DNA from: Eledone cirrhosa
Lineage: Eukaryota
Direction: 5' to 3'
Assembly: GCA_964016885.1 (NCBI GenBank)
Contig: OZ024740.1
Location: 60,636,001-60,700,000 of the forward strand
Length of the DNA stretch: 64,000 bases
The translations under genes and the position numbers were made by a program. The notes beneath the pieces were generated by a model that saw nothing but the letters and a program-made list of their open reading frames with translations, did no database searches and was not told the origin of the DNA. Positions 24,611 to 64,000 of the stretch are shown in pieces (positions within the stretch are counted from its first letter, which is position 1; each line of letters opens with the position of its first letter).

Positions 24611-24697
24611 GAAATGAAATGCAGTGTAAGAGATGTATATTAAAGGATTAGAAATAAAGAATGACTATGAAGTATATCAGCATCTCTAATTTATATG

Positions 24698-27600
24698 ATT
24701 GATAGAGCTGTCTATATCAATGATAGAGCTGTCTATATCAATGATAGAGCTGTCTATATGAATGATAGAGCTGTCTATATGAATGATAGAACTGTTTATA
24801 TCAATGATAGAGCTGTCTATATCAATGATAGAACTGTCTATATCAATCAATGATAGAGCTGTTTATATCAATGATAGAACTGTTTATATCAGTGATAGAG
24901 CTGTCTATATCAATGATAGAGCTGTCTATATCAATGATAGAGCTGTTTATATCAATGATAGAGCTGTTTATATCAATGATAGAGCTGTTTATATCAATGA
25001 TAGAACTGTCTATATCAATCAATGATAGAGCTGTTTATATCAATGATAGAACTGTTTATATCAATGATAGAGCTGTCTATATCAATGATAGAGCTGTCTA
25101 TATCAATGATAGAGCTGTCTATATCAATGATAGATATGTCTATATCAATGATAGATCTGTCTATATCAATGATAGAGCTGTCTATATCAATGATAGAACT
25201 GTTTATATCAATGATAGAGCTGTCTATATCAATGATAGAACTGTTTATATCAATGATAGAGCTGTCTATATCAATGATAGAGCTGTCTATATCAATGATA
25301 GAACTGTCTATAGCAATGATAGAGCTGTCTATATCAATGATAGAGCTGTCTATATCAATGATAGAGCTGTCTATATCAATGATAGAGCTGTTTATATCAA
25401 TGATAGAGCTGTCTATATCAATGATAGAGCTGTTTATATTAATGATAGAGCTGTTTATATTAATGATAGAACTGTTTATATCAATGATAGAGCTGTTTAT
25501 ATCAATGATAGAATTGTCTATATCAATGATAGAGCTGTCTATATCAATGATAGAGGTGTCTATATCAATGATAGAGCTGTCTATATCAATGATAGAGCAG
25601 TCTATATCAATCAATGATAGAGCTGTCTATATCAATGATAGAGCTGTCTATATCAATCAATGATAGAGCTGTCTATATCAATGATAGAGCTGTCTATATC
25701 AATGATAGAGCAGTCTATATCAATGATAGAGCTGTTTATATCAATGATAGAGCAGTCTATATCAATGATAGAACTGTCTATATCAATGATAGAGCTGTCT
25801 ATATCAATGATAGAGCAGTCTATATCAATGATAGAACTGTCTAAATCAATGATAGAGCTGTCTATATCAATGATAGAGCTGTCTATATCAATGATAGCAC
25901 TGTCTATATCAATGATAGAGCTGTCTATATGAATTATAGAACTGTTTATAACAATGATAGAGCTGTCTATATGAATGATAGAACTGTTTATATCAATGAT
26001 AGAACAGTCTATATGAGTGATAGTGCTGTCTATAGCAATGATAGAGCCATTTATATCAATGATAGAGCTGTCTATATCAATGATAGAGCTGTCTATATCA
26101 ATGATAGAGCAGTCTATATCAATGATAGAACTGTCTATATCAATGATAGAGCTGTCTATATCAATGATAGAGCTGTCTATATCAATGATAGAGCTGTCTA
26201 TATCAATGATAGAGCTGTGTATATCAATCAATGATAGAGCTGTCTATATCAATGATAGAGCTGTTTATATCAATGATAGAGCTGTGTATATCAATCAATG
26301 ATAGAGCTGTCTATATCAATGATAGAGCTGTCTATATCAATGATAGAGCAGTCTATATCAATGATAGAGTTGTCTATATCAATGATAGAGCTGTCTATAT
26401 CAATGATAGAGCTGTCTATATCAATCAATGATAGAGCTGTCTATATCAATGATAGAGTTGTCTATATCAATGATAGAGCTGTCTATATCAATGATAGAGC
26501 TGTTTATATCAATGATAGAGCTGTCTATATCAATTATAGAGCTGTCTATATCAATGATAGAGCTGTCTATATCAATAATAGAGCTGTCTATATCAATCAA
26601 TGATAGAGCTGTCTATATCAATGATAGAGCTGTCTATATCAATGATAGAGCTGTCTATATCAATGATAGAGCTGTCTATATCAATGATAGAGCTGTCTAT
26701 ATCAATGATAGAGCTGTCTATATCAATGATAGAGCTGTCTATGTCAATGATAGAGCTGTTTATATCAATGATAGAGCTGTCCATATCAATGATAGAGCTG
26801 TTTATATTAATGATAGAGCTGTTTATGTCAATGATAGAGCTGTATATATCAATGATAGAGCTGTTTATATCAATGATAGAACTGTTTATATCAATGATAG
26901 AACAGTCTATATGAGTGATAGTGCTGTTTATATCAATGATAGAGCCATTTATATCAAGGATAGAGCTGTCTATATCAATGATAGAGCTGTTTATATCAAT
27001 GATAGAGCTGTCTATATCAATGATAGAGCTGTCTATATCAATGATAGAGCTGTCTATATCAATGATAGTGCTGTCGATATCAATGATAGAGCCATTTATA
27101 TCAAGGATAGAGCTGTCTATATCAATGATAGAGCTGTTTATATCAATGATAGAGCTGTCTATATCAATGATAGAGCTGTTTATATCAATGATAGAGCTGC
27201 TTATATCAATGATAGAGCTGTTTATATCAATGATAGAACTGTCTATATCAATGATAGAGCAGTCTATATCAATGATAGAACTGTCTATATCAATGATAGA
27301 GCTGTTTATATTAATGATAGAGCTGTTTATATCAATGATAGAACTGTCTATATCAATGATAGAGCTGTCTATATCAATGATAGAGCAGTCTATATCAATG
27401 ATAGAACTGTCTAAATCAATGATAGAGCTGTCTATATCAATGATAGAGCTGTCTATATCAATGATAGCACTGTCTATATCAATGATAGAGCTGTCTATAT
27501 GAATTATAGAACTGTTTATAACAATGATAGAGCTGTCTATATGAATGATAGAACTGTTTATATCAATGATAGAACAGTCTATATGAGTGATAGTGCTGTC

Positions 27601-30033
27601 TATAGCAATGATAGAGCCATTTATATCAATGATAGAGCTGTCTATATCAATGATAGAGCTGTCTATATCAATGATAGAGCAGTCTATATCAATGATAGAA
27701 CTGTCTATATCAATGATAGAGCTGTCTATATCAATGATAGAGCTGTCTATATCAATGATAGAGCTGTCTATATCAATGATAGAGCTGTGTATATCAATCA
27801 ATGATAGAGCTGTCTATATCAATGATAGAGCTGTCTATATCAATGATAGAGCTGTCTATATCAATGATAGAGCTGTTTATATCAATGATAGAGCTGTCTA
27901 TATCAATGATAGAGCTGTCTATATCAATGATAGAGCTGTCTATATCAATGATAGAGCTGTCTATATCAATGATAGAGCTGTCTATATCAATGATAGAGCT
28001 GTCTATATCAATGATAGAGCTGTCTAAATCAATGATAGAGCTGTCTATATCAATGATAGAGCTGTCTATATCAATGATAGAGCTGTCTATATCAATGATA
28101 GAGCTGTCTATATCAATGATAGAGCTGTCTATATCAATGATAGAGCTGTTTATATCAATGATAGAGCTGTCTATAACAATGATAGAGCAGTCTATATCAA
28201 TGATAGAGCTGTCTATGTCAATGATAAATCTGTTTATTTGAATGATAGAGCTGTCTATATCAATGATAGAGCTGTTTATATCAATATGATAGAGCTGTTT
28301 ATATCAATGATAGAGCTGTTTATATCAATGATAGAACTGTTTATATCAATGATAGAACTGTTTATATCAATGATAGAGCTGTTTATATCAATGATAGAGC
28401 TGTCTATATCAATGATAGAGCTGTCTATATCAATGATAGAGCTGTTTATTTCAATGATAGAGCTGTCTATATCAATGATAGAACTGTCTATAACAATGAT
28501 AGAGCAGTCTATATCAATGATAGAGCTGTCTATATGAATGATAGAGCTGTTTATATCAATGATAGAGCTGTCTATATGAATGATAGAGCTGTTTATATCA
28601 ATGATAGAGCTGTCTATATGAATGATAGAGCTGTTTATATCAATGATAGAGCTGTCTATATCAATGATAGAGCTGTTTATATCAATGATAGAGCTGTTTA
28701 TATCAATGATAGAGCTGTCTATATCAATGATAGAACTGTTTATATGAATGATAGAGCTGTTTATATGAATGATAGAGCTGTCTATATGAATGATAGAGCT
28801 GTCTATATCAATGATAGAGCTGTCTATATGAATGATAGTGCTGTTGATATCAATGATAGAACTGTCTATATCAATGATAGAGCTGTCTATATCACTGATA
28901 GAGCTGTTTATATCAATGATAGAGCTGTCTATATGAATGATAGAGCTGTTTATATCAATGATAGAGCTGTCTATATCAATGATAGAGCTGTTTATATCAA
29001 TGATAGAGCTGTCTATATCAATGATAGAGCTGTCTATATCAATGATAGTGCTGTTGATATCAATGATAGTGCTGTTGATATCATTGATAGAGCTGTTTAT
29101 ATCAATGATAGAGCCGTCTATATCAATGATAGAGCTGTTTATATCAATGATAGAGCTGTCTATATCAATGATAGAGCTGTTTATATCAATGATAGAGCTG
29201 TCTATATCAATGATAGAGCTGTCTATATCAATGATAGTGCTGTTGATATCAATGATAGAGCTGTCTATATCATTGATAGTGCTGTTGATATCATTGATAG
29301 AGCTGTTTATATCAATGATAGAGCCGCCTATATCAATGATAGAGCTGTCTATAGCAATGATAGAGCTGTCTATATCAATGATAGAGCTGTTTATATCAAT
29401 GATAGAGCTGTCTATATCAATGATAGAGCTGTCGATAGCAATGATAGAGCTGTCTATATCAATGATAGAGCTGTTGATATCAATGATAGAGCCGTCTATA
29501 TCAATGATAGAGCTGTCTATAGCAATGATAGAGCTGTGTATATCAATGATAGAGCTGTCTATAGCAATGATAGAGCTGTCTATATCAATGATAGAGTTGT
29601 CTATGTCAATTATAGAGCTGTCTATATCAATGATAGAACGATAGAACTGTTTATATCAATGATAGAGCTGTCTATATCAATGATAGAGCTGTCTATATCA
29701 ATGATAGAGCTGTCTATATCAATGATAGAGCTGTTTATATCAATGATAGAGCTGTCTATATCATTGATAGAGCTGTTTTTATCAATGATAGAGCTGTTTA
29801 TATCAATGATAGAGCTGTCTATATCAATGATAGAGCTGTCTATATCAATGATAGAGCTGTCTATATCAATGATAGAACTGTCTATATCAATGATAGAACT
29901 GTCTATATCAATGATAGAACTGTCTATAACAATGATAGAGCAGTCTATATCAATGATAGAACTGTCTATATCAATGATAGAGCTGTCTATATCAATGATA
30001 GAGCTGTCTATATCAATGATAGAGCTGTTTATA
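24698..30033. repeat. 21-bp tandem satellite (ATCAATGATAGAGCTGTCTAT)n, about 250 copies
   Basis: Direct inspection; variants GTTTAT and AGAACT, with periodic +ATCA insertions. Confidence 0.98.
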
Positions 30034-30611
30034 TGTGTTGGAAGATGTTCAAGAAGGTGAAATTCCCTAGACAGGAGAACTAAAACACAAAAAAAAAAAA
30101 GTTAATGCATCACAAAAGAAAAAACGAACAGTATTTGGAGCAGGCTGTCAGAATAAATAACATTATATTTGCTATGAATGAATAAGAAAATTGTTTCCAT
30201 ATTAAAATAAAGAATATATAATTTTTAAGGGACACCATGAAAGCAGAATGGTAAAGATGTTTTAAATGTAAGAGAAGACATAACTGACTTAGATACTGTT
30301 ATAATCAAAACAAATTGCTATCTCTGAAAAGAAAACATACTCAACCATGTATGTATGTGTGTATGTGTGTGTGTATGTACATATGTATGTATGCGTGTGT
30401 GTATGTGCGCGTGTGTGTATGTACATGTGTGTGTGTGTGTATGTACATATGTATGTGTGTGTGTATGTATGTATGTTTGTGTGTGTGTGTATGTATGTAT
30501 GTGTGTGGGTGTGTATGTTTGTGTGTGTGCGTGTATGCATGTATGTATGTGTATGTATGTATATGTATGTATGTGTGTGTGTATGTATGTATGTGTGTAT
30601 GTATGTATGTA

Positions 30612-31302: not shown

Positions 31303-33151
31303 GTCACCCGCATAGTTAACCAAGTCGTACAGAATGGGGTTGTTCCGAAGGACTGGCATAGCAGCATCATCGTTAACTGTTATAAGGGTAAAGGAGATGC
31401 CCTAGATAGGAGTAACTATAGAGGCATTAAATTAATCGACCAGGCAAAAGTACCACAGACGCTCTTTTCATTGTACGACAACTACAGGAGAAGTACCTAG
31501 CTAAAGGTAAACCCCTATACTTAGCTTTTGTCGACTTGGAGAAAGCCTTCGACAGAGTCCCCCGCTCCATTATCTGGTGGGCTCTTAGAAAACTAGGTGT
31601 TGACGAATGGCTTGTGAGAGCTATACAAGCCATGTATAAAGAAACAGTCAGCAAGGTTAGAATTAACAACGAATATAGTGAAGAGTTTAGCGTAAAAGTT
31701 GGCGTCCATCAGGGCTCTGTTCTCAGCCCCCTACTATTTATTATTGCCCTTCAGGCTATAACAGAGGAGTTCAAGACCGGCTGCCCATGGGAACTCCTAT
31801 ACGCAGACGACCTGACACTCATAGCTGAATCAATGGCCGAGCTAGAGAAGAAATTCCAAACATGGAAGCACGGCCTAGAATCAAAAGGACTTAAAATTAA
31901 CCTGGCTAAGACTAAAGTTCTAGTTTGTAGGAAAGAAAATAAGGCGGCGGTCCCTTCTGGGAAATGGTCATGCTCAGTGTGTAGGAAAGGCGTAGGTAGA
32001 AACTCCATTTTATGTCCCAAATGCAATGTATGGGTGCATAAAAGATGTAGTGGGATCACAGGTAAGCTAACTAAGAACATAGATTTTACATGTGGCCGGT
32101 GCTCTGGTGCAATAAGTATCAGCAAGTGCCCACAAAATAATAGCTCTTTCAATTGCGCAGAGGGTTCTATAGAAATAGTGGACAGCTTCCGTTACCTGGG
32201 CGATAAAATCAGCAGTGGGGGAGGGTGCTCTGAAAGTACAGTAGCTAGAGTCAGAACTGGTTGGAAAAAGTTCAGAGAGCTTATACCACTATTAGCTGCT
32301 AAAGGGTTCTCCCTAAAAATGAAAGGCAGGTTGTATGATGCCTGCATACGAACAGCAATGTTGCATGGCAGTGAGACCTGGGCATTGTGTGCAGAGGATA
32401 TACGCAGACTAGAGAGGAATGAAGCTTGCATGCTCCGCTGGATGTGTAACAGTAATATACGTGAACGGCAAAGCATAAACGAACTAAGGAAAAAATTAGA
32501 AATAAGAGGGATCAGATGTTGTTTACTCGAGAGAAGGCTACGTTGGTATGGACACATGATGCGCATGAAAGTCGATAGCTGTATAACAAAGTGCAGGGCA
32601 ATAAAGATAGACAGTAGCCACGGAATAGGCAGACCTAGAAAAACCTGGGACGAGCTGATAAACTCCGACCTCACACACTTACACCTCTCCAAGACAATGT
32701 CACTGGACCGAGACCTTTGGCGGTACTCAGTAACAGAGAAGACCCGCCTTACCTAAATACATAGTAAAACCTACTACAGCCAGTAGGCATCTCTAACAAA
32801 ATACACCCCGTCCCACCACCCCCACCCCATCCACACCACCCCGTTCTATGTAAAGTTATGTTGGTGCCGCGCCATCCAGGCCGAAACAAATGAGATCGTG
32901 TAGGTGTCACGACAAAAAAACACACAGTCCACGCTGTAATGTGGCCGTGTAGGCAACACGGTAAAAACCTCCCAGACCCACACTGTAAATGTGGTTGGTG
33001 TTAGGAAGGGCATCCAACTGTAGAAAACCTGCCAGACAGTCCTATGCGAGCAAGACAATCACTCTTGCCTCAAGTGGGAATACCCCCGTCCAAACCCATG
33101 CAAGCGTGGAACACGGACGTTAAACGTTGATGATGATGATGATGATGATGA
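31303..33151 (+). mobile_element. RTE LINE subfamily 1, 5'-truncated; RT ORF 31536-32756
   Basis: DLEKAFD, GVHQGSVLSP, LLYADD, PHD finger, (GAT)n tail; 85-nt deletion at about 31443. Confidence 0.95.
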
Positions 33152-33407
33152 CTCTGCACACTAAAGCCATAACTCTGGAATACAACCCAACCAAAATGGG
33201 CTTCATAACAGCATTGAGTGCTTTGAACGGCGTGCCACCTGTAACTGTTTTTACACACTTAACCAACATATATATACACATATATATATATATATATATT
33301 GAAATGGAACCATCAGGAGGGCACTTTTACAACCCCTTTCTAAAACACTCCTTAAACACCCACAACACTCCCAATCAATTATCATGCTCTTACCATTCAC
33401 TATTTTC

Positions 33408-33442
<35 letters not shown>

Positions 33443-33529
33443 CATACTCTCAAGCATGAACCTAATACTAACACCTTGTACTGCACTCTTCGTTATTGTT
33501 TTTGTTTTTTTGTTTTAACTTATATATAT

Positions 33530-33790
33530 CATCATCATCATCATCATTTTTTACGTCCGCTTTTCCCTGCTTGCAAGGGTGGGACGGGAACTGATTCTGG
33601 CTTGATTTCTACAGCTGGATGCCCTTCCTAACACCAACCTCATTTACAGTGAATGCTGGGTGTTTTTTTACTGTGGCACCTACACGACCACTTTGCAGTG
33701 GAATGATAGGGACCCCAGTCCCTATCATCTCATTTCTACAGCTGAGTAAACTGGAGCAATGTGAAATAAAATGTCTTGCTCAAGGAAACA
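33530..33790 (-). mobile_element. SINE family 2, 5'-truncated
   Basis: Matches 46433-46827. Confidence 0.8.
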
Positions 33791-34289
33791 ATATATATAT
33801 GTGTATGCTTTAATTCCTTTAAAGCTTCATCAACACTCCTTCACTCCCACACTCATTAAGAAAACCCTCCCCCTAACACACCCAAATCTCTTATATATAG
33901 AGTCACACATCACAACACAACTTGAGATCAGTTTGACAATTGCCACCGATGAATGCGAGAAAGTTCTCCAGGAAAATTAACCAGGAATCTTTAAAAAGTC
34001 TCCCTACTGAAGTTAACTTCTAGATCTACAAAACGAAATTGTAAAATTATAATATTATAAAATTAAATTAAATTGTTTAGAACTACAAGTGAAGCCATCC
34101 TTTTCCTTTTTCTTTAAATATATATATATATCACAAAGAAGTCATCATGATTTCTTTTGAATGAAACAGTTCTAGTCCTGTAGAAGCCATTTCTATATTA
34201 AATTTGATGTTTTCACTCTACTAATATATTGTGTACCTTACTTACTGTGGTTACGCCCAATTGAACCTGGAACTCACAAACATATTATA

Positions 34290-34327
<38 letters not shown>

Positions 34328-34562
34328 ATTTCAGCGAGATTCGTATTTCAGCCAGGGTTGAAAACAAGCGAACCGCAATATCCGAGTTATGCTGGCAAGT
34401 GCTCCATGGACCAAATAGAGACCAGAGCAATAAACATAGGTTATAAGGCCAAACAAACTGAGATGGCGGTCAAGAAGCCATCAACCACCTAAGCCAAAAA
34501 GACGAGGCAAGCTAAACAGGTCAAACAAAATAAATGAAATATATATATATATATATATATAT

Positions 34563-36197
34563 ATCATCATCATCATCATCATCATCATCACCGTTTTACG
34601 TCCGTTCTTCCACGCTAGCATGGGTTAGACGGGTTGTCCTGTTGTGGGCAGTGTCTGGTCGGCTGACCATGCCTTGCTCATACAGGAACTGATCTGGCTT
34701 GATTTCTACAGCTGGATGCCCTTCCTAACACCAACCTCATTTACAGTGAGTGCTGGGTGCTTTTTCGTGGCGCCTACACGTCCACTTTACAGTGTGGGCT
34801 GGGTGCTTTTTTGCCGTGGCACCTCCACTACCACCTTGCGGTGGGGGGAGTGGGGGCATATTGTTTATATGCTTCAGCATGTACCCATGGGAGGTCGGGT
34901 ACCCTGTATTACTGCGTGACGCCAGAAGTCACGGTCGTGTGTCATTGACTTTGAGAGGTGTAGTTGGGTAAGGTCGGCTTTTATCACCTCATCCCAAGTC
35001 ATCTTGGGTCTCCCCACTCCGCGGTTTCCATCAACTTCTAGTGCTCTGCACCTTTTTATGCAGCTGTCATCCTTCATATGCATCACATGTCCATACCAGC
35101 ATAACCGCCTCTCCTGCACGCAGCATTTGATTCCTCTTATGCTCAGTCTCTCTCTCAATTCCTTTATGCTTTGTCGTTCACGTATATTACTGTTACACAT
35201 CCATCGGAGCATGCAGGCTTCGTTTCTCTCTAATCTACGTAAGTCTTCCACCTTCAGCGCCCAGGTCTCACTACCATGCAACATCGCTGTTCGGATACAT
35301 GCATCATACAGTCTGCCTTTCATTCTGAGGGAGGAGCCTTTTGCAGCTAGCAGTGGTAGTAGTTCCCTAAACTTCTTCCATCCCATTCTTACCCTAGTTA
35401 TTGTACCTTCTGAGCACCCACCTCCGTTGCTAATTCGGTCACCTAGGTAGCAGAAGCTGTCTACTGTTTCTACAGGGCCCTCCCAGAGATTGGTGGTACT
35501 TGTTTCCTGTGGCTGTTTGCTTGCTGTTTCAGCACAGCTGCTGCATGTGAATCCTACATTCTTAATTAAGCTTCCTGAGATCCCGCTACATCTCTTGTGT
35601 ACCCATTGTTTGCATTTGGGGCAGAGAATGAAGTTCCTACCTACACCTTTCCTACATACTGAGCAAGGCCATTTCCCTGAGGGGATCTGGGTTCTGTTTT
35701 CTCGTCTACTTACAAGGACCTTAGTCTTTGTCATGTTGACTTTGAGGCCCTTTCTCTCTAGTCCCTGCTTCCAGGTTTGGAATTTATTCTCTAGTTCTAC
35801 CATAGATTCAGCTATGAGTGCGAGGTCATCAGTATACAGGAGTTCCCATGGGCATCCGGTCTTAAACTCCTCTGTTATTGCCTGCAGGACTATGATGAAC
35901 AGGAGAGGGCTAAGAACAGAGCCCTGGTGGACCCCAACCTGTACGCTAAATTCCTCGCTATACTCATTGCTAATCCTAACTTTGCTGACTGCTCCCCTAT
36001 ACATCGCTTGTACCACTTTCACAAGCCATTCATCTACTCCTAGTTTTCTAAGAGCCCACCAGATTACTGCACGTGGAACTCTGTCAAAGGCTTTCTCAAG
36101 GTCGACAAATGCCAAGTAGAGTGGCTTACTTTTAGCTAGGTACTTTTCCTGTAATTGCCTCACAAGGAAGAGGGCATCAGTGGTGCCTTTCCCTGGT

Positions 36198-36202
<5 letters not shown>
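34563..36202 (-). mobile_element. RTE LINE subfamily 2, 5'-truncated; RT ORF about 34874-36200
   Basis: FVPGKGTTDA, DLEKAFD, QGSVLSP, catalytic YADD mutated to YTDD, PHD finger, (GAT)n tail. Confidence 0.95.
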
Positions 36203-36245
<43 letters not shown>

Positions 36246-36258
36246 ACCTTTCCCTGGT

Positions 36259-36297
<39 letters not shown>

Positions 36298-36413
36298 TTT
36301 TACCAAGGGTAAATAGTGAAGCCTTAACAAAATGAATATTTGAACTCTACTTCTGTATTGAGTACTCTTTTCTGTCAGCCATCAACAACATACGGATGGA
36401 TATATATATATAT

Positions 36414-38636
36414 AATGTGTCAAGGAAAACCGTGATATTGTCGGGGAGAAGTGTGTCCTTAATGATGATGATGTACTTGCCATCACTGACGCTGATAAGA
36501 AGGTAGCTTGGAAGTGTCACGACGAAAGGCTACTAAATGAGGAGAATAAATGGGAGAAAGACAGTCTCCCCCACATCGATCCAATAGAGGGACCAGCAGT
36601 GTTAGTCGAAGGTAGTATAATAAGTAAGGCAATCAAAGATATGAAGACGGTTAAGGCGGCTGGGCCTTCGGAAATAATTGCTGAAATGCTGAAAACATCT
36701 GGAACGGTGGGACACACTATAGTCACCCGGATAGTAAACCAAGTCATACAGAATGGGGCCATTCCGAAGGACTGGCATAGCAGCATCATCATTAACTGCT
36801 ACAAGGGTAAAGGAGATGCTCTTGATAGGGGTAACTATAGAGGCATTAAATTAATCGACCAGGTCATGAAGGTCACAGAAAAAGTAATAGCGCAACTAAT
36901 CAGAGAACGAATTGATCTAGATGAAATGCAGTTCGGGTTTGTGTCAGGTAAAAGTACCACAGACGCTCTTTTCATTGTACGACAACTACAGGAGAAGTAC
37001 CTAGCTAAAAGTAAACCCCTATACTTAGCTTTTGTTGACTTGGAGAAAGCCTTTGACAGAGTACCCCGTTCCATTATCTGGTGGGCGCTTAGAAAACTAG
37101 GTGTTGACGAATGGCTTGTGAGAGCTATACAAGCCATGTATAAAGAAACAGTCAGCAAGTTTAGAATTAACAATGAATATAGTGAAGAGTTTAGTGTAAA
37201 AGTTGGTGTTCTTAGCCCCCTACTATTTATTATTGCCCTTCAGGCTATAACAGAGGAGTTCAAGACCGGCTGCCCATGGGAACTCCTATATGCAGATGAT
37301 CTAACGCTCATAGCTGAATCAATGGCTGAACTAGAGAAGAAATTCCAAACATGGAAGCATGGCCTAGAATCAAAAGGCCTTAAAGTTAACTTGTCTAAGA
37401 CTAAAGTTCTAGTTTGTAGGAAGGAAAATAGGGCACCGGTCCCATCTGGGAAATGGCCATGCTCAGTGTGTAGGAAAGGAGTAGGCAGAAACTCCATTTT
37501 ATGTCCCAAATGCAAAGTATGGGTGCATAAAAGATGTAGTGGGATCACAGGTAAGCTAACTAAGAATATAGATTCTATATGTGGCCGGTGCTCTGGTGCA
37601 ATAAGTAGCAGCAAGTGCCCACAGAATACTAGCTCATTCCATTGCACAGATGGTTCTATAGAAATAGTGGACACCTTCCGTTACCTGGGTGACAAAATCA
37701 GCAGTGGGGGAGGGTGCTCTGAAAGTACAGTAGCTAGAGTCAGAACGGGATGGAAAAAGTTCAGAGAGCTTATACCACTATTGGCCGCTAAAGGGTTCTC
37801 TCTAAAAATGAAAGGCAGGCTGTATGATGCCTGCATACGAACAGCAATGTTACATGGGAGTGACACCTGGGCATTGTGTGCAGAGGATATACGCAGACTG
37901 GAGAGAAACGAAGCTTGCATGCTCCGCTGGATGTGTAATAGTAATATACGTGAACGGCAAAGCATAAACGAACTAAGGGAGAAATTAGGAATAAGAGGGA
38001 TCAGATGTTGTTTAATCGAGAGAAGACTACGTTGGTACGGTTACGTGATGCGCATGAAAGACAACAGCTGTATAAAAAAGTGCAGGGCGATAAAAATAGA
38101 CGGTAGCCATGGAGTAGGCAGACCCAGAAAAACCTAGGATGACTTGATAAATTCCGACCTCACACACTTACACCTCTCTAAGACAATGTCACTGGACCGA
38201 GATCTTTGGCGCTACACAGTCATACAGACTGCGTTGCCTAAGTACAAAGCGAAACCTACAGTCAGTAGGCACCTCTAAAAAAATACACCCCCGTCCCACT
38301 ACCCCCACCCCATCCACACCGCCCCTTTCAATGTAAAGTTATGTTGGTGCCACAACATCCAGTCCGAAACAAATGAGGTCGTGTAGGTGTCACGACAAAA
38401 AAAAACACACAGTCCACGCTGTAATGTGGCCATGTAGGTAACACGGTAAAAACCTCCCAGTCCACACTGTAAATGTGGTTGGTGTTAGGAAGGGCATCCA
38501 GCCGTAGAAAACCCGCCAGTCAGTCCTATACGAGCAGGACAACAAATTTTGCCTCAAGTGGGAAAACTCCCGTCCAAACCCATGCAAGCGTGGAAGATGG
38601 ACGTTAAACGATGATGATGATGATGATGATGATGAT
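36414..38636 (+). mobile_element. RTE LINE subfamily 1b, 5'-truncated; ORF 36599-38137
   Basis: RT domains present; 15-nt in-frame loss of HQGSV and a premature TGG>TAG at 38135; (GAT)n tail. Confidence 0.95.
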
Positions 38637-38990
38637 ACTAGAGTAAAGCATGTCCAGAGAATTATTTGATAATATATATACATCATCTCTACTCCTAATT
38701 AGCACAATTAACCACACAAAAATCAATTAAACCAGGCTATAAGAATTAAAGGCATCTATGAAGAAACAGTAAATAGATACTGTCGTGCTGTCGAAATGTT
38801 GGGTAGATATTCTATAGCGGTTGCACGTGAAGACGCCGCGATGGTGTATCTATTTACTGTTTCTTCATAGATGCCTTTAATTCTTATACCCTGGTCTAAT
38901 TGATTTTTGTGTGGTTAATTGTGCTAATTAGGAGTAGAGATGATGTATATATATTATCAAATAATTCTCTGGACATGCTTTACTCCAGTA
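38637..38990. repeat. Long inverted repeat (about 144-bp arms, about 65-bp spacer)
   Basis: 38637-38780 is the near-perfect reverse complement of 38846-38990. Confidence 0.92.
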
Positions 38991-39093
38991 TTTCGCTCTG
39001 ATTAATTTATTAATTCTCCATTGAGCCACAACGTGAAAAGTTGCAAAAACACCTGTAACTGTTTAATTGGTGTATGTGTAAATATTTATATTT

Positions 39094-39438: not shown

Positions 39439-39565
39439 ATTTATAGACAATCATATATATATTTATAGACAATCATATATATATATATATTTATAGACAA
39501 TCATATATATATTTATAGACAATCATATATATATATATATTTATAGACAATCATATATATATATA
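39439..39565. repeat. Minisatellite ATTTATAGACAATC(AT)n x5
   Basis: Direct inspection. Confidence 0.9.
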
Positions 39566-39606
<41 letters not shown>

Positions 39607-39791
39607 AAATAAAATGAAAACGAAATTTCATTTCTCACTCTTAGTACGGCACTTACTTTTATTTCAACTTATCGTTTTCGGTATGCCTGACCGACTTAGC
39701 TCACTCAATATGCAAATTAGGCTGCTCAGCCGTTAATTTTCATAAGGAAAGTATATACTTTCGAACGTTCAACTATCTGGCAGATGGGTAT

Positions 39792-39834
39792 ACGGTGCTG
39801 ATGATAGCTAACAAGCTTGAAACTAGTACATCGT
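39792..39834 (+). ncRNA. Minimal type I hammerhead ribozyme, copy 1
   Basis: ACGGTG-CTGATGA-tAGCT aaca AGCTt-GAAA-CTAG-TA^CATCGT; predicted cleavage after 39828. Confidence 0.85.
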
Positions 39835-39988
39835 TCCTGTGTCAGTGTTGAACAAAAAGGTGACGTGGTTGCCTTAACACCGTACGGCAAAAAAATTCAG
39901 GCTGTTCAGTTTGTTTACAAACGAACAAAGCGGCGTTATAATAAGCGTCCGCTAAACTGATACGTGCATATATGTATGTGTACCTGTA

Positions 39989-40074
<86 letters not shown>

Positions 40075-40310
40075 TGCTACTGTACGTCTGTATACATATA
40101 TGTATGTACGTATACACGCATACTTACATTTAAGTAAGTGCCGTACTAAGAGTGAGAAATGAAATTTCGTTTTCATTTTATTTCAACTTATCGTTTTCAG
40201 TATGCCTGACCGACTTAGCTCACTCGATATGCAAATTAGGCTGCTCAGCCGTTAATTTTCATAAGGAAAGTATATACTTTCGAACGTTCAACTATCTGGC
40301 AGATGGGTAT

Positions 40311-40353
40311 ACGGTGCTGATGATAGCTAACAAGCTTGAAACTAGTACATCGT
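40311..40353 (+). ncRNA. Minimal type I hammerhead ribozyme, copy 2
   Basis: Identical motif; predicted cleavage after 40347. Confidence 0.85.
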
Positions 40354-40507
40354 TCCTGTGTCAGTGTTGAACAAAAAGGTGACGTGGTTGCCTTAACACC
40401 GTACGGCATAAAAATTCAGGCTGTTCAGTTTGTTTACAAACGAACAAAGCGGCGTTATAATAAGCGTCCGCTAAACTGATACGTGCATATATGTATGTGT
40501 ACCTGTA

Positions 40508-40577
<70 letters not shown>

Positions 40578-40813
40578 TGCTACTGTACGTCTGTATACAT
40601 ATATGTATGTACGTATACACACATACTTACATTTAAGTAAGTGCCATACTAAGAGTGAGAAATGAAATTTCGTTTTCATTTTATTTCAACTTATCGTTTT
40701 CGGTATGCCTGACCGACTTAGCTCACTCGATATGCAAATTAGGCTGCTCAGCCGTTAATTTTCATAAGGAAAGTATATACTTTCGAACGTTCAACTATCT
40801 GGGAGATGGGTAT

Positions 40814-40856
40814 ACGGTGCTGATGATAGCTAACAAGCTTGAAACTAGTACATCGT
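40814..40856 (+). ncRNA. Minimal type I hammerhead ribozyme, copy 3
   Basis: Identical motif; predicted cleavage after 40850. Confidence 0.85.
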
Positions 40857-41009
40857 TCCTGTGTCAGTGTTGAACAAAAGGTGACGTGGTTGCCTTAACA
40901 CCGTACGGCATAAAAATTCAGGCTGTTCAGTTTGTTTACAAACGAACAAAGCGGCGTTATAATAAGCGTCCGCTAAACTGATGCGTGCATATATGTATGT
41001 GTACCTGTA

Positions 41010-41059
<50 letters not shown>

Positions 41060-41171
41060 TGCTACTGTACGTCTGTATACATATATGTATGTACGTATAC
41101 ACACATACTTACATATATATATATTAATCGATGAAAAAAGAGTTAGTTGATGTGTGATCAACTTGTTCATA

Positions 41172-57250: not shown

Positions 57251-59072
57251 TCATCATCATTTTATGTCCGCTTTTCCCTGCTTGCAAGGGTGGGATGGGT
57301 CTTATTCAGCACAGCATCTCTCCACTTGTCATGGTCCTTCGTCATCTCCACCGTGAACTTCAGCGATCTGAAGTCTGTTTGCACCACCTCCGCCCATGTT
57401 TTTCATGGTCTACCTCTACCACGTCTTCCTTCAACTGGTATTTCCTGGCACTTCTTCACCCATCGGTCATCCTCCATGCACATCACATGTCCATACCACC
57501 GCAGTCTCCTCTTTCGCACACTAAATTCTCTCCCTCTCAGACAGTTTCTCTCTCAACACATCCATGCTGGGTCATTCACGCACATTGACATTTCACATCC
57601 AACAGAGCATGCTTGCCTCATTTCTCTCCAGCCGTCGCATATCCTCTGCAGTTGCTGCCTATGTCTCACTACCATGCAGCATCGCGCTCCTCACACAAGC
57701 ATCATATAACCGACCTTTCGTACGCAGGGAGAAACCCTTCCTCGTCAGCAGAGGAAGCAGCTCCCTAAACTTCTTCCAGCCCGTCCTTATTCTAGATACT
57801 ATGGCCTCGGAACACCCCCTCCCATGCTAATCTGGTCTCCTAGGTACCGGAAGCTATCCACCACTTCTATAGCACCCGCCTGCATTTGAAAAATGTGTCT
57901 ATCAATGCGACTTCTACTGTCTAATGTCCCTGTACATCTACTGCATACATATTTCTCCCTACCTGTTAGTTTGCCTGCTATCCCACTACATCTCTCGTGT
58001 ACCCAGGATCTGCATTGTGTACATTTTATAGAATTTATGCGAGTTCCTTTTCTGCATATCGAACATGGCCATTTCCCTGACGGAATCAGAGTTTTGTCCT
58101 CTTTTCTACTTATCAACACTTTTGTCTTAGCTAGGTTCACTCTCAGTCCTCTTGCTTCCAAATGCTGTTTCCATAGCCAGAATTTATTCTCTAGCTCCTC
58201 TGCTGATTCTGCCATAAGTACCAGATCGTCAGCATAGAGAAGTTCCATGGACAGCCAGTCTTAAACTCCTCTGTTATGGCTTGGAGGACTATAATGAACA
58301 AGAGCAGGCTGAGGACCGAACCTTGATGTACTCCTACTTGTATCTGGAATTTCTCACTAAACTCCATTCCTACCCTGACTTTACTGACAGCACCTCTGTA
58401 CAAAGTTTGCACTGTCCTCACCAGCCATTCCTCAACACCTAGTTTCCTTAGGGACCACCAGATGACAGATAGGAGTACCCTATCAAAGGCCTTCTCTAGG
58501 TCAACAAAGGCTAAGTATACTGGCTTATTCTTCTCTAAGAACCTCTCTTGTAATTGTCTCACCAAGAAAAGGGCATCTGTTGTACTTTTCCCAGGCACAA
58601 AACCAAACTGCATCTCATCTAGTTTGACCCGTTCTCTAATTAGTTGTGCTAATATCCTTTCTGCCACTTTCATAACCTGATCCATCAGTTTTATACCCCT
58701 ATAATTGCTCCTCTCCAGAGCATCCCCTTTACTTTGTAGCAATTTATGAGAATACTGCTGCACCAGTCTTTGGGTATGACACCACCATATATAGCCTGAT
58801 TGATGATGCGTGCAACCAGTTTAGTGCCTACGTCCCCTGATGCCTTCAGCATCTCAGCAACTATCCCTGACGGTCCAGCAGCCTAACCATTTTTCATTTC
58901 CTTAATCGCCTCTTGGACCCTATATTCGTCAATCTCAATAGCTGGTCCCTCTGTCTGATCTACTAAGGGTAATTTCTCGCTCTCCCATTCGTTCTCCACA
59001 TTCATCAGTCTCTCATAACGACATTTCCAGGCCTCCTTTTTCTGATCATTTGTGATACTAAGTACACCGGCA
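57251..59072 (-). mobile_element. RTE LINE subfamily 3, frameshifted, short 3' UTR
   Basis: Pieces NYRGIKL, DLEKAFD, QGSVLS, LLYADD, PHD finger; (GAT)n tail. Confidence 0.92.
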
Positions 59073-59130
59073 TATATATATATATACTTTATATTTATAT
59101 ATATATACTTTATATATATATATATATAAT

Positions 59131-61748
59131 AAATTTCAAAGCATATTACTTGATGCTTTCGACAGTAAGGAAGAACATTTAGAGTCGGACAATATAGAGG
59201 GAGAGTGGGAATTTCTGAAAGCAAACCTGCTGTTGGCGACAGACGAAGTCTGTGGCTGGAGCAGGCCTATAGGCAGGAGGAAAGTAACATGGTGGTGGAA
59301 CAGTAAGGTGGAGGGGTCAATTAAGGCCAAAAAGCAGGCTTGGAAAGTATGGCGGGATGGGGGAAGTAGAGAAGACTATCAAGTGGCCAGGAGGGAAGCT
59401 AGGAGACAAGTGTACTTAGCAAGAAGGGAAGCTGAGGAAAGAAAGTTCAAGCATGTTCTACAACGCGATGACCAAAAACGTGAGGTGTTCAGGATTGCTA
59501 GGCAATGCGTCAAGGAAAACCGTGATATTGTCGGGGAGAAGTGTGTACTAAACGACGATGGCATACTTGCCATCACCGACGCTGATAAGAAGGTAGCTTG
59601 GAAGTGTCACTATGAAAGGCTACTAAATGAGGAGAATAAATGGGAGAAAGACAGTCTCCCCCATATCGACCCAATAGAGGGACCAGCAGTGTTAGTCGAG
59701 GGGAGTATAATAAGTAAGGCAATCAAGGATATGAAGACGGGTAAGGCGGCTGGGCCTTCGGAAATAGTTGCTGAGATGCTGAAGGCATCTGGCACGGTGG
59801 GACACACCATGGTCACCCGCATAGTTAACCAAGTCGTACAGAATGGGGTTGTTCCGAAGGACTGGCATAGCAGCATCATCGTTAAGTGTTATAAGGGTAA
59901 AGGAGACGCCCTAGATAGGAGTAACTATAGAGGCATTAAATTAATCGACCAGGTCATGAAGGTCACGGAAAAAGTAATAGCGCAACTAATCAGAGAGAGA
60001 ATTGACCTAGATGAAATGCAGTTCGGGTTTGTGTCAGGCAAAAGTACCACAGATGCTCTTTTCATAGTACGACAACTACAGGAGAAGTACCTAGCTAAAG
60101 GTAAACCCCTCTACTTAGCTTTTGTCGACTTGGAGAAAGCCTTCGACAGAGTCCCCCGCTCCATTATCTGGTGGGCTCTTAGAAAACTAGGCGTTGACGA
60201 ATGGCTTGTGAGGGCTATACAAGCCATGTATAAAGAAACAGTCAGCAAGGTTAGAATTAACAACGAATATAGTGAAGAGTTTAGCGTAAAAGTTGGCGTC
60301 CATCAGGGCTCTGTTCTCAGCCCCCTACTATTTATTATTGCCCTTCAGGCTATAACAGAGGAGTTCAAGACAGGCTGCCCATGGGAACTCCTATACGCAG
60401 ACGACCTGACACTCATAGCGGAATCAATGGCCGAGCTAGAGAAGAAATTCCAAACATGGAAGCACGGCCTCGAGTCAAAAGGACTTAAAATTAACCTGGC
60501 TAAGACCAAAGTTCTAGTTTGTAGGAAAGAAAACAAGGCGGCGATCCCTTCTGGGAAATGGTCATGCTCGGTGTGTAGGAAAGGCGTAGGTAGAAACTCC
60601 ATTTTATGTCCCAAATGCAAAGTATGGGTGCATAAAAGATGTAGTGGGATCACAGGTAAGCTAACTAAGAACATAGATTTTACATGTGGCCAGTGTTCTG
60701 GTGCAATAAGTAGCAGCAAGTGCCCACAAAATACTAGCTCTTTCAATTGCGCAGAGGGTTCTATAGAAATAGTGGACAGCTTCCGTTACCTGGGCGATAA
60801 AATCAGCAGTGGGGGAGGGTGCTCTGAAAGTACTGTAGCTAGAGTCAGAACTGGTTGGAAAAAGTTCAGAGAGCTTATACCACTATTAGCTGCTAAAGGG
60901 TTCTCCCTAAAAATGAAAGGCAGGTTGTACGATGCCTGCATACGAACAGCAATGCTGCATGGCAGTGAGACCTGGGCATTGTGTGCAGAGGATATACGCA
61001 GACTAGAGAGGAACGAAGCTTGCATGCTCCGCTGGATGTGTAACAGTAATATACGTGAACGGCAAAGCATAAACGAACTAAGGAAAAAATTAGAGATAAG
61101 AGGGATCAGATGTTGTTTACTCGAGAGAAGGCTACGTTGGTATGGACACGTGATGCGCATGAAAGTCGATAGCTGTATAACAAAGTGCAGGGCAATAAAG
61201 ATAGACGGTAGTCACGGAATAGGCAGACCTAGAAAAACCTGGGACGAGCTGATAAACTCCGACATCACACACTTACACCTCTCCAAGACAATGTCACTGG
61301 ACCGAGACCTTTGGCGGTACTCAGTAACAGAGAAGACCCGCCTTACCTAAATATATAGTAAAACCTACTCCAGCCAGTAGGCATCTCTAACAAAATACAC
61401 CCCGTCCCACCACCACCACCCCCACCCCATCCATACCACCCCGTTCTATGTAAAGTTATGTTGGTGCCGCGCCATCCAGGCCGAAACAAATGAGATCGTG
61501 TAGGTGTCACGACAAAAAAACACACAGACCACGCTGTAATGTGGCCGTGTAGGCAACACGGTAAAAACCTCCCAGACCCACACTGTAAATGTGGTTGGTG
61601 TTAGGAAGGGCATCCAACTGTAGAAAACCTGCCAGACAGTCCTATGCGAGCAAGACAATCACTCTTGCCTCAAGTGGGACTACCCCCGTCCAAACCCATG
61701 CAAGCGTGGAACACGGACGTTAAACGTTGATGATGATGATGATGATGA
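59131..61748 (+). mobile_element. RTE LINE subfamily 1, longest copy (lacks APE, 5'-truncated)
   Basis: Uninterrupted reading frame, 3' UTR and (GAT)n tail. Confidence 0.97.
59233..61350 (+). CDS. RTE reverse transcriptase with embedded PHD finger (705 aa, frame open from the truncation point at 59131)
   Basis: TWWWN, GKAAGP, YKGKGD..NYRGIKL, QFGF, DLEKAFD, QGSVLSP, YADD, RLRWYGHV, GRPRKTW. Confidence 0.9.
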   Translation: MATDEVCGWSRPIGRRKVTWWWNSKVEGSIKAKKQAWKVWRDGGSREDYQVARREARRQVYLARREAEERKFKHVLQRDDQKREVFRIARQCVKENRDIVGEKCVLNDDGILAITDADKKVAWKCHYERLLNEENKWEKDSLPHIDPIEGPAVLVEGSIISKAIKDMKTGKAAGPSEIVAEMLKASGTVGHTMVTRIVNQVVQNGVVPKDWHSSIIVKCYKGKGDALDRSNYRGIKLIDQVMKVTEKVIAQLIRERIDLDEMQFGFVSGKSTTDALFIVRQLQEKYLAKGKPLYLAFVDLEKAFDRVPRSIIWWALRKLGVDEWLVRAIQAMYKETVSKVRINNEYSEEFSVKVGVHQGSVLSPLLFIIALQAITEEFKTGCPWELLYADDLTLIAESMAELEKKFQTWKHGLESKGLKINLAKTKVLVCRKENKAAIPSGKWSCSVCRKGVGRNSILCPKCKVWVHKRCSGITGKLTKNIDFTCGQCSGAISSSKCPQNTSSFNCAEGSIEIVDSFRYLGDKISSGGGCSESTVARVRTGWKKFRELIPLLAAKGFSLKMKGRLYDACIRTAMLHGSETWALCAEDIRRLERNEACMLRWMCNSNIRERQSINELRKKLEIRGIRCCLLERRLRWYGHVMRMKVDSCITKCRAIKIDGSHGIGRPRKTWDELINSDITHLHLSKTMSLDRDLWRYSVTEKTRLT

Positions 61749-61749
61749 T

Positions 61750-61790
<41 letters not shown>

Positions 61791-61792
<2 letters not shown>

Positions 61793-62700
61793 GGGAGGGT
61801 GCGCTGAAAGTATAGTAGCTAGAGTCAGAACGGGATGGAAAAAGTTCAGAGAGCTTATACCACTATTGGCCGCTAAAGGGTTCTCTCTAAAAATGAAAGG
61901 CAGGCTGTATGATGCCTGCATACAAACAGCAATGTTACATGGCAGTGAGATCTGGGTATTGTGTGCAGAGGATATACGCAGACTGGAGAGAAACGAAGCT
62001 TGCATGCTCCGCTGGATGTGTAATAGTAATATACGTGAATGGCAAAGCATAAACGAACTAAGGGAGAAATTAGGAATAAGAGGGATCAGATGTTGTTTAC
62101 TCGAGAGAAGACTACGTTCGTACGGTCATGTGATGCGCATGAAAGACAACAGCTGTATAAAAAAGTGCAGGGCGATAAAAATAGACGGTAGCCACGGAGT
62201 AGGCAGACCCAGAAAAACCTGGGACGACTTGATAAGTTCCGACCTCACACACTTTCACCTCTCCAAGACAATGTCACTGGACCGAGATCTTTGGCGCTAC
62301 ACAGTCATACAGAAGACCCGCCTGGCCTAAGTACAAAGCAAAACCTACAGTCAGTAGGCACCTCTAACAAAATACACCCCCGTCCCACTACCCCCACCCC
62401 ATCCACACTTAAATGTGAAGTTATGTTGGTACCACAACATCCAGTCCGAAACAAATGAGGTCGTGTAGATGCACGACAAAAAAACACACAGTCCATACTG
62501 TAATGTGGCTGTGTAGGTAACACGGTAAAAACCTCCCAGTTCTACACTGTAACGTGGTTGGTGTTAGGAAGGGCATCCAGCCGTAGAAAACCCGCTAGAC
62601 AGTCCTATACGAGCAGGACAACAAATCTTGCCTCAAGTGGGAAAACTCCCGTCCAAACCCATGCAAGCGTGGAAGATGGACGTTAAACGATGATGATGAT
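61791..62700 (+). mobile_element. RTE subfamily 1b, 5'-truncated
   Basis: ORF 61866-62330; tail meets the next element's tail. Confidence 0.92.
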
Positions 62701-64000
62701 CATCATCATCATCATCATCATCACCGTTTTACGTCCGTTCTTCCACGCTAGCATGGGTTAGACGGGTTGTCCTGTTGTGGGCAGTGTCTGGTCGGCTGAC
62801 CATGCCTTGCTCATACAGGAACTGATCTGGCTTGATTTCTACAGCTGGATGCCCTTCCTAACACCAACCTCATTTACAGTGAGTGCTGGGTGCTTTTTCG
62901 TGGCGCCTACACGTCCACTTTACAGTGTGGGCTGGGTGCTTTTTTGCCGTGGCACCTCCACGACCACCTTGCGGTGGGGGGGGGGGGGCATATTGTTTAT
63001 ATGCTTCAGCATGTACCCATGGGAGGTCGGGTACCCTGTATTACTGCATGACGCCAGAAGTCACGGTCGTGTGTCATTGACTTTGAGAGGTGTAGTTGGG
63101 TAAGGTCGGCTTTTATCACCTCATCCCAAGTCATCTTGGGTCTCCCCACTCCGCGGTTTCCATCAACTTCTAGTGCTCTGCACCTTTTTATGCAGCTGTC
63201 ATCCTTCATACGCATCACATGTCCATACCAGCGTAACCGCCTCTCCTGCACGCAGCATTTGATTCCTCTTATGCTCAGTCTCTCTCTCAATTCATTTATG
63301 CTTTGTCGTTCACGTATATTACTGTTACACATCCATCGGAGCATGCAGGCTTCGTTTCTCTCTAATCTACGTAAGTCTTCCACCTTCAGCGCCCAGGTCT
63401 CACTACCATGCAACATCGCTGTTCGGATACACGCATCATACAGTCTGCCTTTCATTCTGAGGGAGAAGCCTTTTGCAGCTAGCAGTGGTAGTAGTTCCCT
63501 AAACTTCTTCCATCCCGTTCTTACCCTAGTTATTGTACTTTCTGAGCACCCACCTCCGTTGCTAATTCGGTCACCTAGGTAGCAGAAGCTGTCTACTGTT
63601 TCTACAGGGCCCTCCCAGAGATTGGTGGTACTTGTTTCCTGTGGCTGTTTGCTTGCTGTTTCAGCACAGCTGCTGCATGTGAATCCTACATTCTTAATTA
63701 AGCTTCCTGAGATCCCGCTACATCTCTTGTGTACCCATTGTTTGCATTTGGGGCAAAGAATGGAGTTCCTACCTACACCTTTCCTACATACTGAGCAAGG
63801 CCATTTCCCTGAGGGGATCTGGGTTCTGTTTTCTCGTCTACTTATAAGGACCTTAGTCTTTGTCATGTTGACTTTGAGGCCCTTTCTCTCTAGTCCCTGC
63901 TTCCAGGTTTGGAATTTATTCTCTAGTTCTACCATAGATTCAGCTATGAGTGCGAGGTCATCAGCATACAGGAGTTCCCATGGGCATCCGGTCTTAAACT
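62701..64000 (-). mobile_element. RTE subfamily 2 (continues beyond the window); ORF 63006 to >63935
   Basis: Near-identical to 34563-35870, with YADD intact. Confidence 0.95.

What the first reader, a model, noticed from the sequence alone, without database searches (positions are those of the whole stretch)
39604..41113. Tandem trimer of hammerhead-ribozyme units: candidate cephalopod retrozyme / circular-RNA retroelement
Seen: three near-identical non-coding units, each containing an identical type I hammerhead. Stem I is ACGGTG/CATCGT, extendable past an internal loop by ATGGG/CCTGT. The core is CTGATGA...GAAA, stem II is AGCT-AACA-AGCT, stem III is the palindrome ACTAGT, and the cleavage triplet is GUA. 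Cleavage after 39828, 40347 and 40850 would release monomers of 519 and 503 nt. Known: minimal type I hammerheads with a palindromic stem III occur in Penelope-like elements and metazoan non-LTR retrozymes, cleave best as dimers, and tandem copies yield circRNAs. Inference: this is a non-autonomous element copied by rolling reverse transcription of a circular RNA, since the unit boundary is offset about 220 nt from the cleavage site. The monomer is on the long side and carries a length-variable (TA)n. I cannot tell whether this family has been described.
Basis: partly seen in the sequence, partly recalled or inferred. Interest (0 to 1): 0.85.

Follow-up and report, generated by a model that had tools for sequence, protein, structure and literature searches.

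The report
Penelope-pasted retrozyme carrying U6-type promoter
This is one copy of an abundant non-coding repeat whose units each carry a predicted self-cutting RNA motif and the promoter motif of this genome's U6 gene, and whose mirror-image insertions suggest it is likely pasted in by a Penelope-type jumping-gene enzyme copying an RNA, probably a circle.

Summary
The three hammerheads and their 519/503 spacing are real, but this is not a plain trimer: 39604-39658 is an inverted 55-bp arm. The family has 10,672 exact ribozyme cores in the genome. Insertions sit in (TA)n as two head-to-head arms ending at two fixed sites about 60 nt apart, one arm at each site (18 of 18 pairs on one contig). 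That is the Penelope 'tail' footprint; Neptune-type elements here end the same way, and two loci join Neptune and retrozyme arms directly. Sense-strand A>G bias points to an edited RNA intermediate; one array has period 3 (p 0.002), as a multi-unit circle would give. Each unit carries the 12-bp motif found at -78 of this genome's U6, RNase MRP and U6atac genes, plus a TATA box, just before the ribozyme; five other hammerhead families share this layout. Cleavage, circles, transcription and the helper family are unshown. Earlier scan notes report the two-arm build for other families and genomes. Verdict: new variant of the non-LTR retrozymes.

The parts
39604..39658 (-). short inverted arm (unit positions 2-56), ending outward at the 'A' terminus (end of the ~60-nt tail)
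   Evidence: 100% reverse complement of 40132-40186; same terminus in many loci
39657..41114 (+). long arm: unit position 46 onward, about 2.9 units, ending outward at the 'B' terminus
   Evidence: B terminus pattern matches here
39709..39758 (+). U6-type upstream motif TATGCAAATTAG (39709) and TATA box (39751), unit 1; predicted start near 39782
   Evidence: positions; same motif at -77 to -79 of U6, MRP, U6atac
39792..39834 (+). type I hammerhead 1, predicted cut after 39828
39987..40071 (+). internal (TA)n, predicted long RNA hairpin
40119..40191 (+). B site (loop of an AC-rich hairpin) followed by the ~60-nt tail up to the A site, internal copy
40228..40277 (+). U6-type motif (40228) and TATA box (40270), unit 2; predicted start near 40301
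40311..40353 (+). type I hammerhead 2, predicted cut after 40347
40506..40574 (+). internal (TA)n of unit 2
40731..40780 (+). U6-type motif (40731) and TATA box (40773), unit 3
40814..40856 (+). type I hammerhead 3, predicted cut after 40850
41008..41056 (+). internal (TA)n of unit 3
39559..39603 (.). left flank: 12-nt mark ATATATATTAAT then (TA)n; likely left copy of a target-site duplication
   Evidence: similar duplicated marks in L205, L221, L269
41117..41128 (.). right flank: same 12-nt mark; likely right copy of the target-site duplication

Best explanation
This is one insertion of a non-coding, 10,000-copy hammerhead repeat (a non-LTR retrozyme) that is likely transcribed from a U6-type promoter inside each unit, predicted to self-cleave as a dimer, and likely inserted into (TA)n by a Neptune-type Penelope-like enzyme that would start two cDNAs at two fixed sites on one RNA, probably a circle. 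Steps: (1) inferred: the internal motif plus TATA box starts RNA about 16 nt before the ribozyme core; read-through gives multimers. (2) Inferred from homologous ribozymes: two hammerheads pair through the palindromic stem III and release ~500-nt monomers, sometimes dimers or trimers, which a host ligase closes. (3) Inferred from scars: ADAR edits the (UA)n hairpin. (4) Shown as DNA footprint, inferred as mechanism: the endonuclease cuts (TA)n on both strands, one strand primes at site A and the other at site B, each cDNA runs through the cut/ligation point for a variable number of units, and the two arms join head to head by short microhomology. Carrying whole units keeps the upstream promoter, which a linear transcript would lose.
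For: Footprint: on contig C1, 18 of 18 A-B terminus pairs within 6 kb point outward, against 1 A-A and 0 B-B outward pairs. Of 80 loci chosen by the A terminus, 51 have an inverted arm ending at or near B (46 with TA flank), 5 end in the internal TA, 1 at A, 2 other, 19 have no inversion, 2 run off the edge. Among 54 clusters from the first 100 core matches, 16 have both strands and all 16 are head to head. The 80%-identical subfamily uses the same two ends. 31 of 44 tight junctions overlap by 1-11 nt. Four Neptune-type families (RT, Cx4CxxC linker, C-terminal GIY-YIG) occur here and end in (TA)n; F1, F3 and F4 show two termini 38-66 nt apart. PMC11167929 showed two adjacent internal start sites, in an AC-rich stem loop, giving the tail; site B lies in such a loop. 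Direct Neptune-retrozyme joins in L105 and L141. One RNA source: variants shared within an arm 182/416, between opposite arms 63/201, between insertions 492/10024. RNA intermediate: deep TG versus CA interruptions of the internal TA 55 to 4 events, 15 to 4 loci, p 0.019, flanks 33 to 29; locus-shared private A>G versus T>C 12 to 3, p 0.035. Circle: array L142 has period 3 (p 0.002); circular monomer folds at z -5.6. Promoter.
Against: No RNA data: cleavage, circles and transcription are unshown. One of nine predicted Xenopus dimers cleaved in vitro (10.64898/2026.07.22.740005), and this ribozyme has a U-U or C-A mismatch at the base of helix II. Periodicity was significant in 1 of 5 arrays tested (others p 0.064, 0.10, 0.50, 0.50) and could come from DNA-level duplication. 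The motif-TATA spacing is 43 nt against 47-48 in U6 and MRP, and T4 runs (T6 in 29 of 35 units of the older subfamily) in the tail would stop polymerase III before the A terminus. All private substitutions together show no A>G bias (39 to 36). The unit's ends show no significant likeness to any Neptune family's ends (p 0.17-0.73), and the two joins could be insertion plus deletion.
Confidence: 0.68

Rival explanations
1. Same element and same Penelope helper, but the template is an uncleaved linear read-through RNA; arrays grow by template jumps or unequal crossing over, and the hammerhead is not needed for spread.
For: PMC11167929: ribozyme mutants did not affect insertion in vitro and unprocessed RNA was the main substrate. 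Arm inner ends are not enriched at the cut site (7 of 56 in 215-235, 4.2 expected, p 0.13), which fits an uncut linear RNA as well as a circle. 4 of 5 arrays lack significant periodicity.
Against: The core is kept across subfamilies about 80% alike (98.3% of stem cells paired, triplet GUA or GUU) and six families put a hammerhead behind the promoter. Young dispersed insertions hold up to 10 units in one arm, with period 3 in L142.
Confidence: 0.2
2. The unit is the pseudo-LTR of an autonomous Penelope-like element not yet seen, and these are its truncated ends.
For: Identical insertion architecture; pseudo-LTRs carry type I hammerheads (PMC4209133); Xenopus retrozymes resemble pseudo-LTRs (10.64898/2026.07.22.740005). 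Only 150 of 10,596 GIY-YIG candidates were scored.
Against: Units follow each other directly with no ORF. No blastn likeness to the pseudo-LTRs in 50 GIY-YIG loci beyond 3 separate insertions. Across 193 loci holding the unit (overlaps counted separately) Neptune DNA abuts it only through (TA)n or at two joins. The five Penelope-like elements checked lack the U6-type motif.
Confidence: 0.08
3. A DNA-level satellite or fold-back repeat that expands at (TA)n without RNA, or an assembly artefact.
For: Tandem units with microsatellites; no read or contig laid spans the whole locus.
Against: Fixed paired termini, dispersed 98-100% identical copies on many contigs, strand-biased A>G, target duplications, units with private differences, and family reads in independent samples including strand-inversion joints.
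Confidence: 0.04

Closest known systems
Metazoan non-LTR retrozymes (Cervera and de la Pena 2020, PMC7229834: coral, mussel, axolotl; parts 2-4 of 6 and passages read, supplement not readable)
   Same: Tandem non-coding units, GC 34%, canonical type I hammerhead with palindromic helix III, U-U at base of helix II as in axolotl HHR_Amex2, self-paired predicted circle, Penelope-like elements in the same genome.
   Different: Unit about 460-550 nt (reported 170-400 nt in that paper), internal (TA)n, two-armed insertions with fixed termini, (TA)n targeting, an internal U6-type promoter and A>G scars are not described in the parts read. Circles and cleavage were shown there, not here.
Vertebrate non-LTR retrozymes as derivatives of Penelope-like elements (Li, Clavereau, Pollet 2026, 10.64898/2026.07.22.740005; parts 1-3 of 5 read, supplements closed)
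   Same: Proposes Penelope-like helpers; unit lengths 51-972 bp cover this one.
   Different: Their evidence is co-occurrence and pseudo-LTR likeness. Here no pseudo-LTR likeness was found; the evidence is the insertion footprint and two direct joins. No mollusc was sampled there.
EN+ Penelope-like elements, Neptune clade, and Poseidon PAc (10.1101/2021.04.23.441226, passages; PMC11167929, parts 1-2 of 4)
   Same: Inverted 5'-truncated arm, tail on one end only, microsatellite bias, two adjacent internal start sites in an AC-rich stem loop, both target strands primed.
   Different: No ORF; tail about 60 nt rather than 30-40; multi-unit arms; U6-type rather than CCAAT-type promoter.
Schistosoma hammerhead SINE-like repeats and newt satellite 2 (review PMC6765202, passages; snRNA-type promoter of satellite 2 recalled, not read)
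   Same: Promoter followed by a hammerhead in each tandem unit; the upstream unit drives the next.
   Different: Schistosoma repeats are described as SINE-like polymerase III units and newt transcripts as polymerase II products. Here the motif matches the host's U6, MRP and U6atac upstream element and not U2.

Membership tests
non-LTR retrozyme | tandem short non-coding units each with a type I hammerhead | tested here: met
   no ORF of 120 aa in the element
non-LTR retrozyme | conserved hammerhead core and stems | tested here: met
   15 representatives: 98.3% cells paired, 3 pairs with two-sided change, each in one sequence; Rfam below gathering score
non-LTR retrozyme | dispersed high copy number, no LTR/PBS/PPT build | tested here: met
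   10,672 exact cores; architecture
non-LTR retrozyme | target-site duplication longer than 4 bp where present | tested here: inconclusive
   hidden by (TA)n; duplicated marks in the window and, by eye, 3 of 41 loci listed
non-LTR retrozyme | self-cleavage in vitro | not testable with these tools
   needs transcription assay
non-LTR retrozyme | expressed as circular RNA | not testable with these tools
   no RNA holder listed
Penelope-like element (autonomous, EN+) | ORF with RT and GIY-YIG | tested here: not met
Penelope-like element (autonomous, EN+) | inverted 5' arm, tail on one end, two fixed termini | tested here: met
Penelope-like element (autonomous, EN+) | sequence kinship to a pseudo-LTR | tested here: not met
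   only five Penelope-like families sampled
type 3 (U6-like) polymerase III promoter | host upstream element and TATA box | tested here: met
   12-bp motif equal to that of U6 locus L162; consensus in 13 of 20,000 shuffles
type 3 (U6-like) polymerase III promoter | host spacing between the two elements | tested here: inconclusive
   43 nt here, 47-48 in U6 and MRP; 41-48 across six hammerhead families
type 3 (U6-like) polymerase III promoter | start site and polymerase III dependence | not testable with these tools
   needs 5' RACE, inhibitors or ChIP

The most novel reading that the evidence does not exclude
Several retrozyme families in this genome have captured the host's gene-external U6-type promoter, which only tandem or circular copying can preserve, and a Neptune dimer copies one edited RNA circle (of one, two or three units) from two adjacent start sites at once, sometimes pairing it with its own RNA in a single insertion.
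Probability: 0.35. Interest if true: 0.78.

Novelty: new variant of a known kind. Interest (0 to 1): 0.56.

Why it matters
Who mobilises animal retrozymes and what transcribes them is proposed rather than shown in the papers read. This family names both start sites on the RNA, the target, candidate helper proteins with recent copies, and a predicted promoter and start point, so each step can be tested with an existing in vitro Penelope assay and simple RNA mapping. A retroelement keeping an upstream U6-type promoter would also give a reason for tandem or circular replication, and a compact natural cassette for making circular RNA.

Tried and rejected
No RNA holder listed for the unit; this says nothing on expression. 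Arm inner ends are not clustered at the cut site or the predicted start (7 and 2 of 56; scan p 0.96). Terminal likeness to Neptune families F1-F4 seen by eye did not survive shuffling. The 1045-aa ORF inside an array in L149 is a LINE (APE, RT, PHD) inserted later, not the helper. Neptune ends next to retrozyme ends across a TA tract (L002, L072, L150, L198, L201, L221) were read as shared target, not chimeras. U2 upstream regions lack the motif (0 of 6 distinct ones), so an snRNA polymerase II promoter was not supported. Rfam miRNA hits are TA-repeat noise. The first TG/CA count (89 to 5) included inherited border changes and was replaced by the stricter count. Sequence look-up in earlier scan notes found no look-alike; a word look-up for U6 promoter plus retrozyme found nothing.

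Full report
Observation. The ribozyme is canonical type I by the description in PMC4209133 (passages), with a one- or two-pair helix III inside the palindrome ACUAGU and a U-U mismatch at the base of helix II like axolotl HHR_Amex2 (PMC7229834). Rfam scores it below threshold.

Family. The 3.0-Gb genome holds 10,672 exact copies of the 32-nt core (control 0). The 40 best candidates of 1,681 are 98-100% identical to the window unit over its length. An older subfamily about 80% alike had 3,946 candidates. Across 15 representatives the stems stay paired in 98.3% of cells; two-sided changes are few (3 cells) and related sequences can beat the shuffle control, so this is modest support. Downstream hairpins show clearer compensatory change. 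A circular monomer with the TA tract shortened folds at z -5.6 against 100 shuffles. Pieces of the family occur in runs of three other coded organisms that were laid; two further runs gave nothing.

Insertion footprint. Arms end at two fixed sites: A, at unit position 56-61, and B, at the unit's last bases, about 60 nt apart, each followed by (TA)n. Exact end-plus-TA patterns gave 396 A and 247 B matches. On contig C1 (67 A, 37 B), all 18 A-B pairs within 6 kb point outward; there was 1 outward A-A pair and no outward B-B pair. I fetched 80 of the first 100 listed A ends: 46 have an inverted arm ending at B with TA flank, 3 a very short one, 1 without TA, 1 partial, 5 end in the internal TA, 1 at A, 2 other, 19 have no inversion, 2 run off the edge (automatic classes; the A-side TA is there by selection). 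Less biased: among 54 clusters from the first 100 core matches, 38 show one strand and all 16 with both strands are head to head. The older subfamily uses the same ends. A arms often stop at the B site (17 of 50 end in positions 1-15, against 1 of 33 B arms), as expected if both primings act on one RNA, though a hairpin pause would do the same and A arms reach this point first. [quoted passage not shown] PMC11167929 (parts 1-2 of 4) showed that the tail lies between two internal start sites in an AC-rich stem loop and that both target strands are extended. Site B sits in the loop of an AC-rich hairpin in both subfamilies.

Helper. The genome has 10,596 GIY-YIG candidates, 150 scored. Twenty long-ORF loci gave four families with RT, a Cx4CxxC linker and C-terminal GIY-YIG, hence Neptune-type, and one further family; F1 and F4 have copies 95-99% identical in protein. 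They end in (TA)n. In L105 the last 140 nt of F1 form one arm and the retrozyme the other, joined by a 2-nt overlap with no other F1 DNA seen nearby. In L141 a 3.2-kb F2 arm and a short inverted F2 piece run straight into unit position 234 and on to a B end. Both could be insertion plus deletion. No sequence kinship between the unit and these pseudo-LTRs was found, so the helper family is not fixed.

RNA intermediate and circle. Both arms of an insertion share private variants (63 of 201, same arm 182 of 416, between insertions 492 of 10,024). Prompted by an earlier scan note I tested for editing: interruptions deep in the internal TA on the sense strand are TG 55 times and CA 4 times (15 versus 4 of 86 loci, p 0.019), while flanking TA is balanced (33 to 29). 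Private variants shared by two or more units of a locus are A>G 12, T>C 3 (p 0.035); all private variants are 39 to 36. Arm ends ignore the cut site, so the template is circular or uncut. Many arrays have near-identical units; of five arrays tested, L142 has period 3 (p 0.002), L016 and L240 show period 3 and 2 without significance (p 0.064, 0.10), two show none. Circles of one to three units explain this; DNA duplication can too.

Promoter. Each unit has TATGCAAATTAG and a TATA box before the ribozyme. The same motif lies at -77 to -79 in 4 of 6 distinct U6 upstream regions shown (three independent promoters), and in none of 6 U2 regions. Two genes fetched afterwards as a check agree: RNase MRP (1 of 1, -78) and the best U6atac locus (one mismatch; 1 of 5, the rest look like retrocopies). 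The consensus appears in 13 of 20,000 shuffles of the unit, and 206 of 216 units keep the 12-mer (overlapping loci counted). A genome search that excluded the window's usual next base found 479 motif-TATA-CTGATGA matches, control 0; the 30 fetched fall by eye into this family (5) and five others (9, 9, 4, 2, 1), most with recognisable hammerheads and spacings of 41-48. Two of those families look distantly related to this one. The search requires the motif, so it does not say what share of retrozymes have it. Against polymerase III: spacing 43 rather than 47-48, and T runs in the tail that must be read through. I put a working promoter at about 0.65 and polymerase III at about 0.4.

Literature and novelty. 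Retrozymes, their circles and a proposed Penelope helper are published (PMC7229834; 10.64898/2026.07.22.740005, parts 1-3 of 5). Promoter-plus-hammerhead units are known from Schistosoma and newts (PMC6765202, passages; the newt snRNA-type promoter is recalled). Ten searches listed no paper describing a cephalopod retrozyme, this two-terminus footprint for retrozymes, a U6-type promoter in one, or editing scars; the library lacks most subscription papers, and the supplements of PMC7229834 and of the preprint could not be seen and may bear on this. PMC8967140 (passages) notes Penelope expansions in coleoids without ribozymes. Earlier scan notes reached the two-arm reading for other families here and in other genomes; I had it before seeing them, and they are not independent evidence. 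The host was not identified. Verdict: new variant of a known kind, interest 0.56.

Noticed in passing
L273-L302: Five other hammerhead families with the same U6-type motif and TATA box; one (L278 group) has the exact U6 spacing of 48 and looks old and dispersed; L284/L291 is a 466-nt tandem relative with the same ACTAGT stem III.
   Followed up: partly
window about 11065-11130, minus strand: A truncated copy of the L273-type hammerhead family; weaker hammerhead-like starts at 18137 (-), 5598 (-), 45795 (+).
   Followed up: partly
window 38635-38991: Near-perfect inverted repeat, 146-nt arms, 98% complementary, 65-nt spacer, beside (GAT)n; MITE-like or another two-armed insertion.
   Followed up: no
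window 31431-38137 and 59062-63582: LINE copies with RT followed by a PHD finger, some in inverted pairs; a 1045-aa APE-RT-PHD ORF of this kind is inserted in a retrozyme array in L149.
   Followed up: partly
window 24692-30034: 5.3-kb minisatellite with a 21-bp unit (about 250 copies).
   Followed up: no
window 39439-39595: Minisatellite of GACAATC plus variable TA directly left of the insertion; not part of the unit.
   Followed up: no
L061, L069, L141, L063: Neptune-type families F1, F2 and F3 have only degenerate hammerhead-like motifs, while F4 (L064) has a canonical one; pseudo-LTRs hold internal microsatellites and CCAAT boxes.
   Followed up: partly
L105:400-700 and L141:6455-7265: Short two-armed insertions made only of Neptune F2 ends, both arms ending at the same terminus in L105.
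   Followed up: no
G000 C19 near 31.78-31.84 Mb; C3 near 307.35-307.45 Mb: Tandem clusters of a variant U6 (about 1.8-kb period) and of U2 (about 2.2-kb period); U2 upstream regions carry a TATA-like tract near -30.
   Followed up: no
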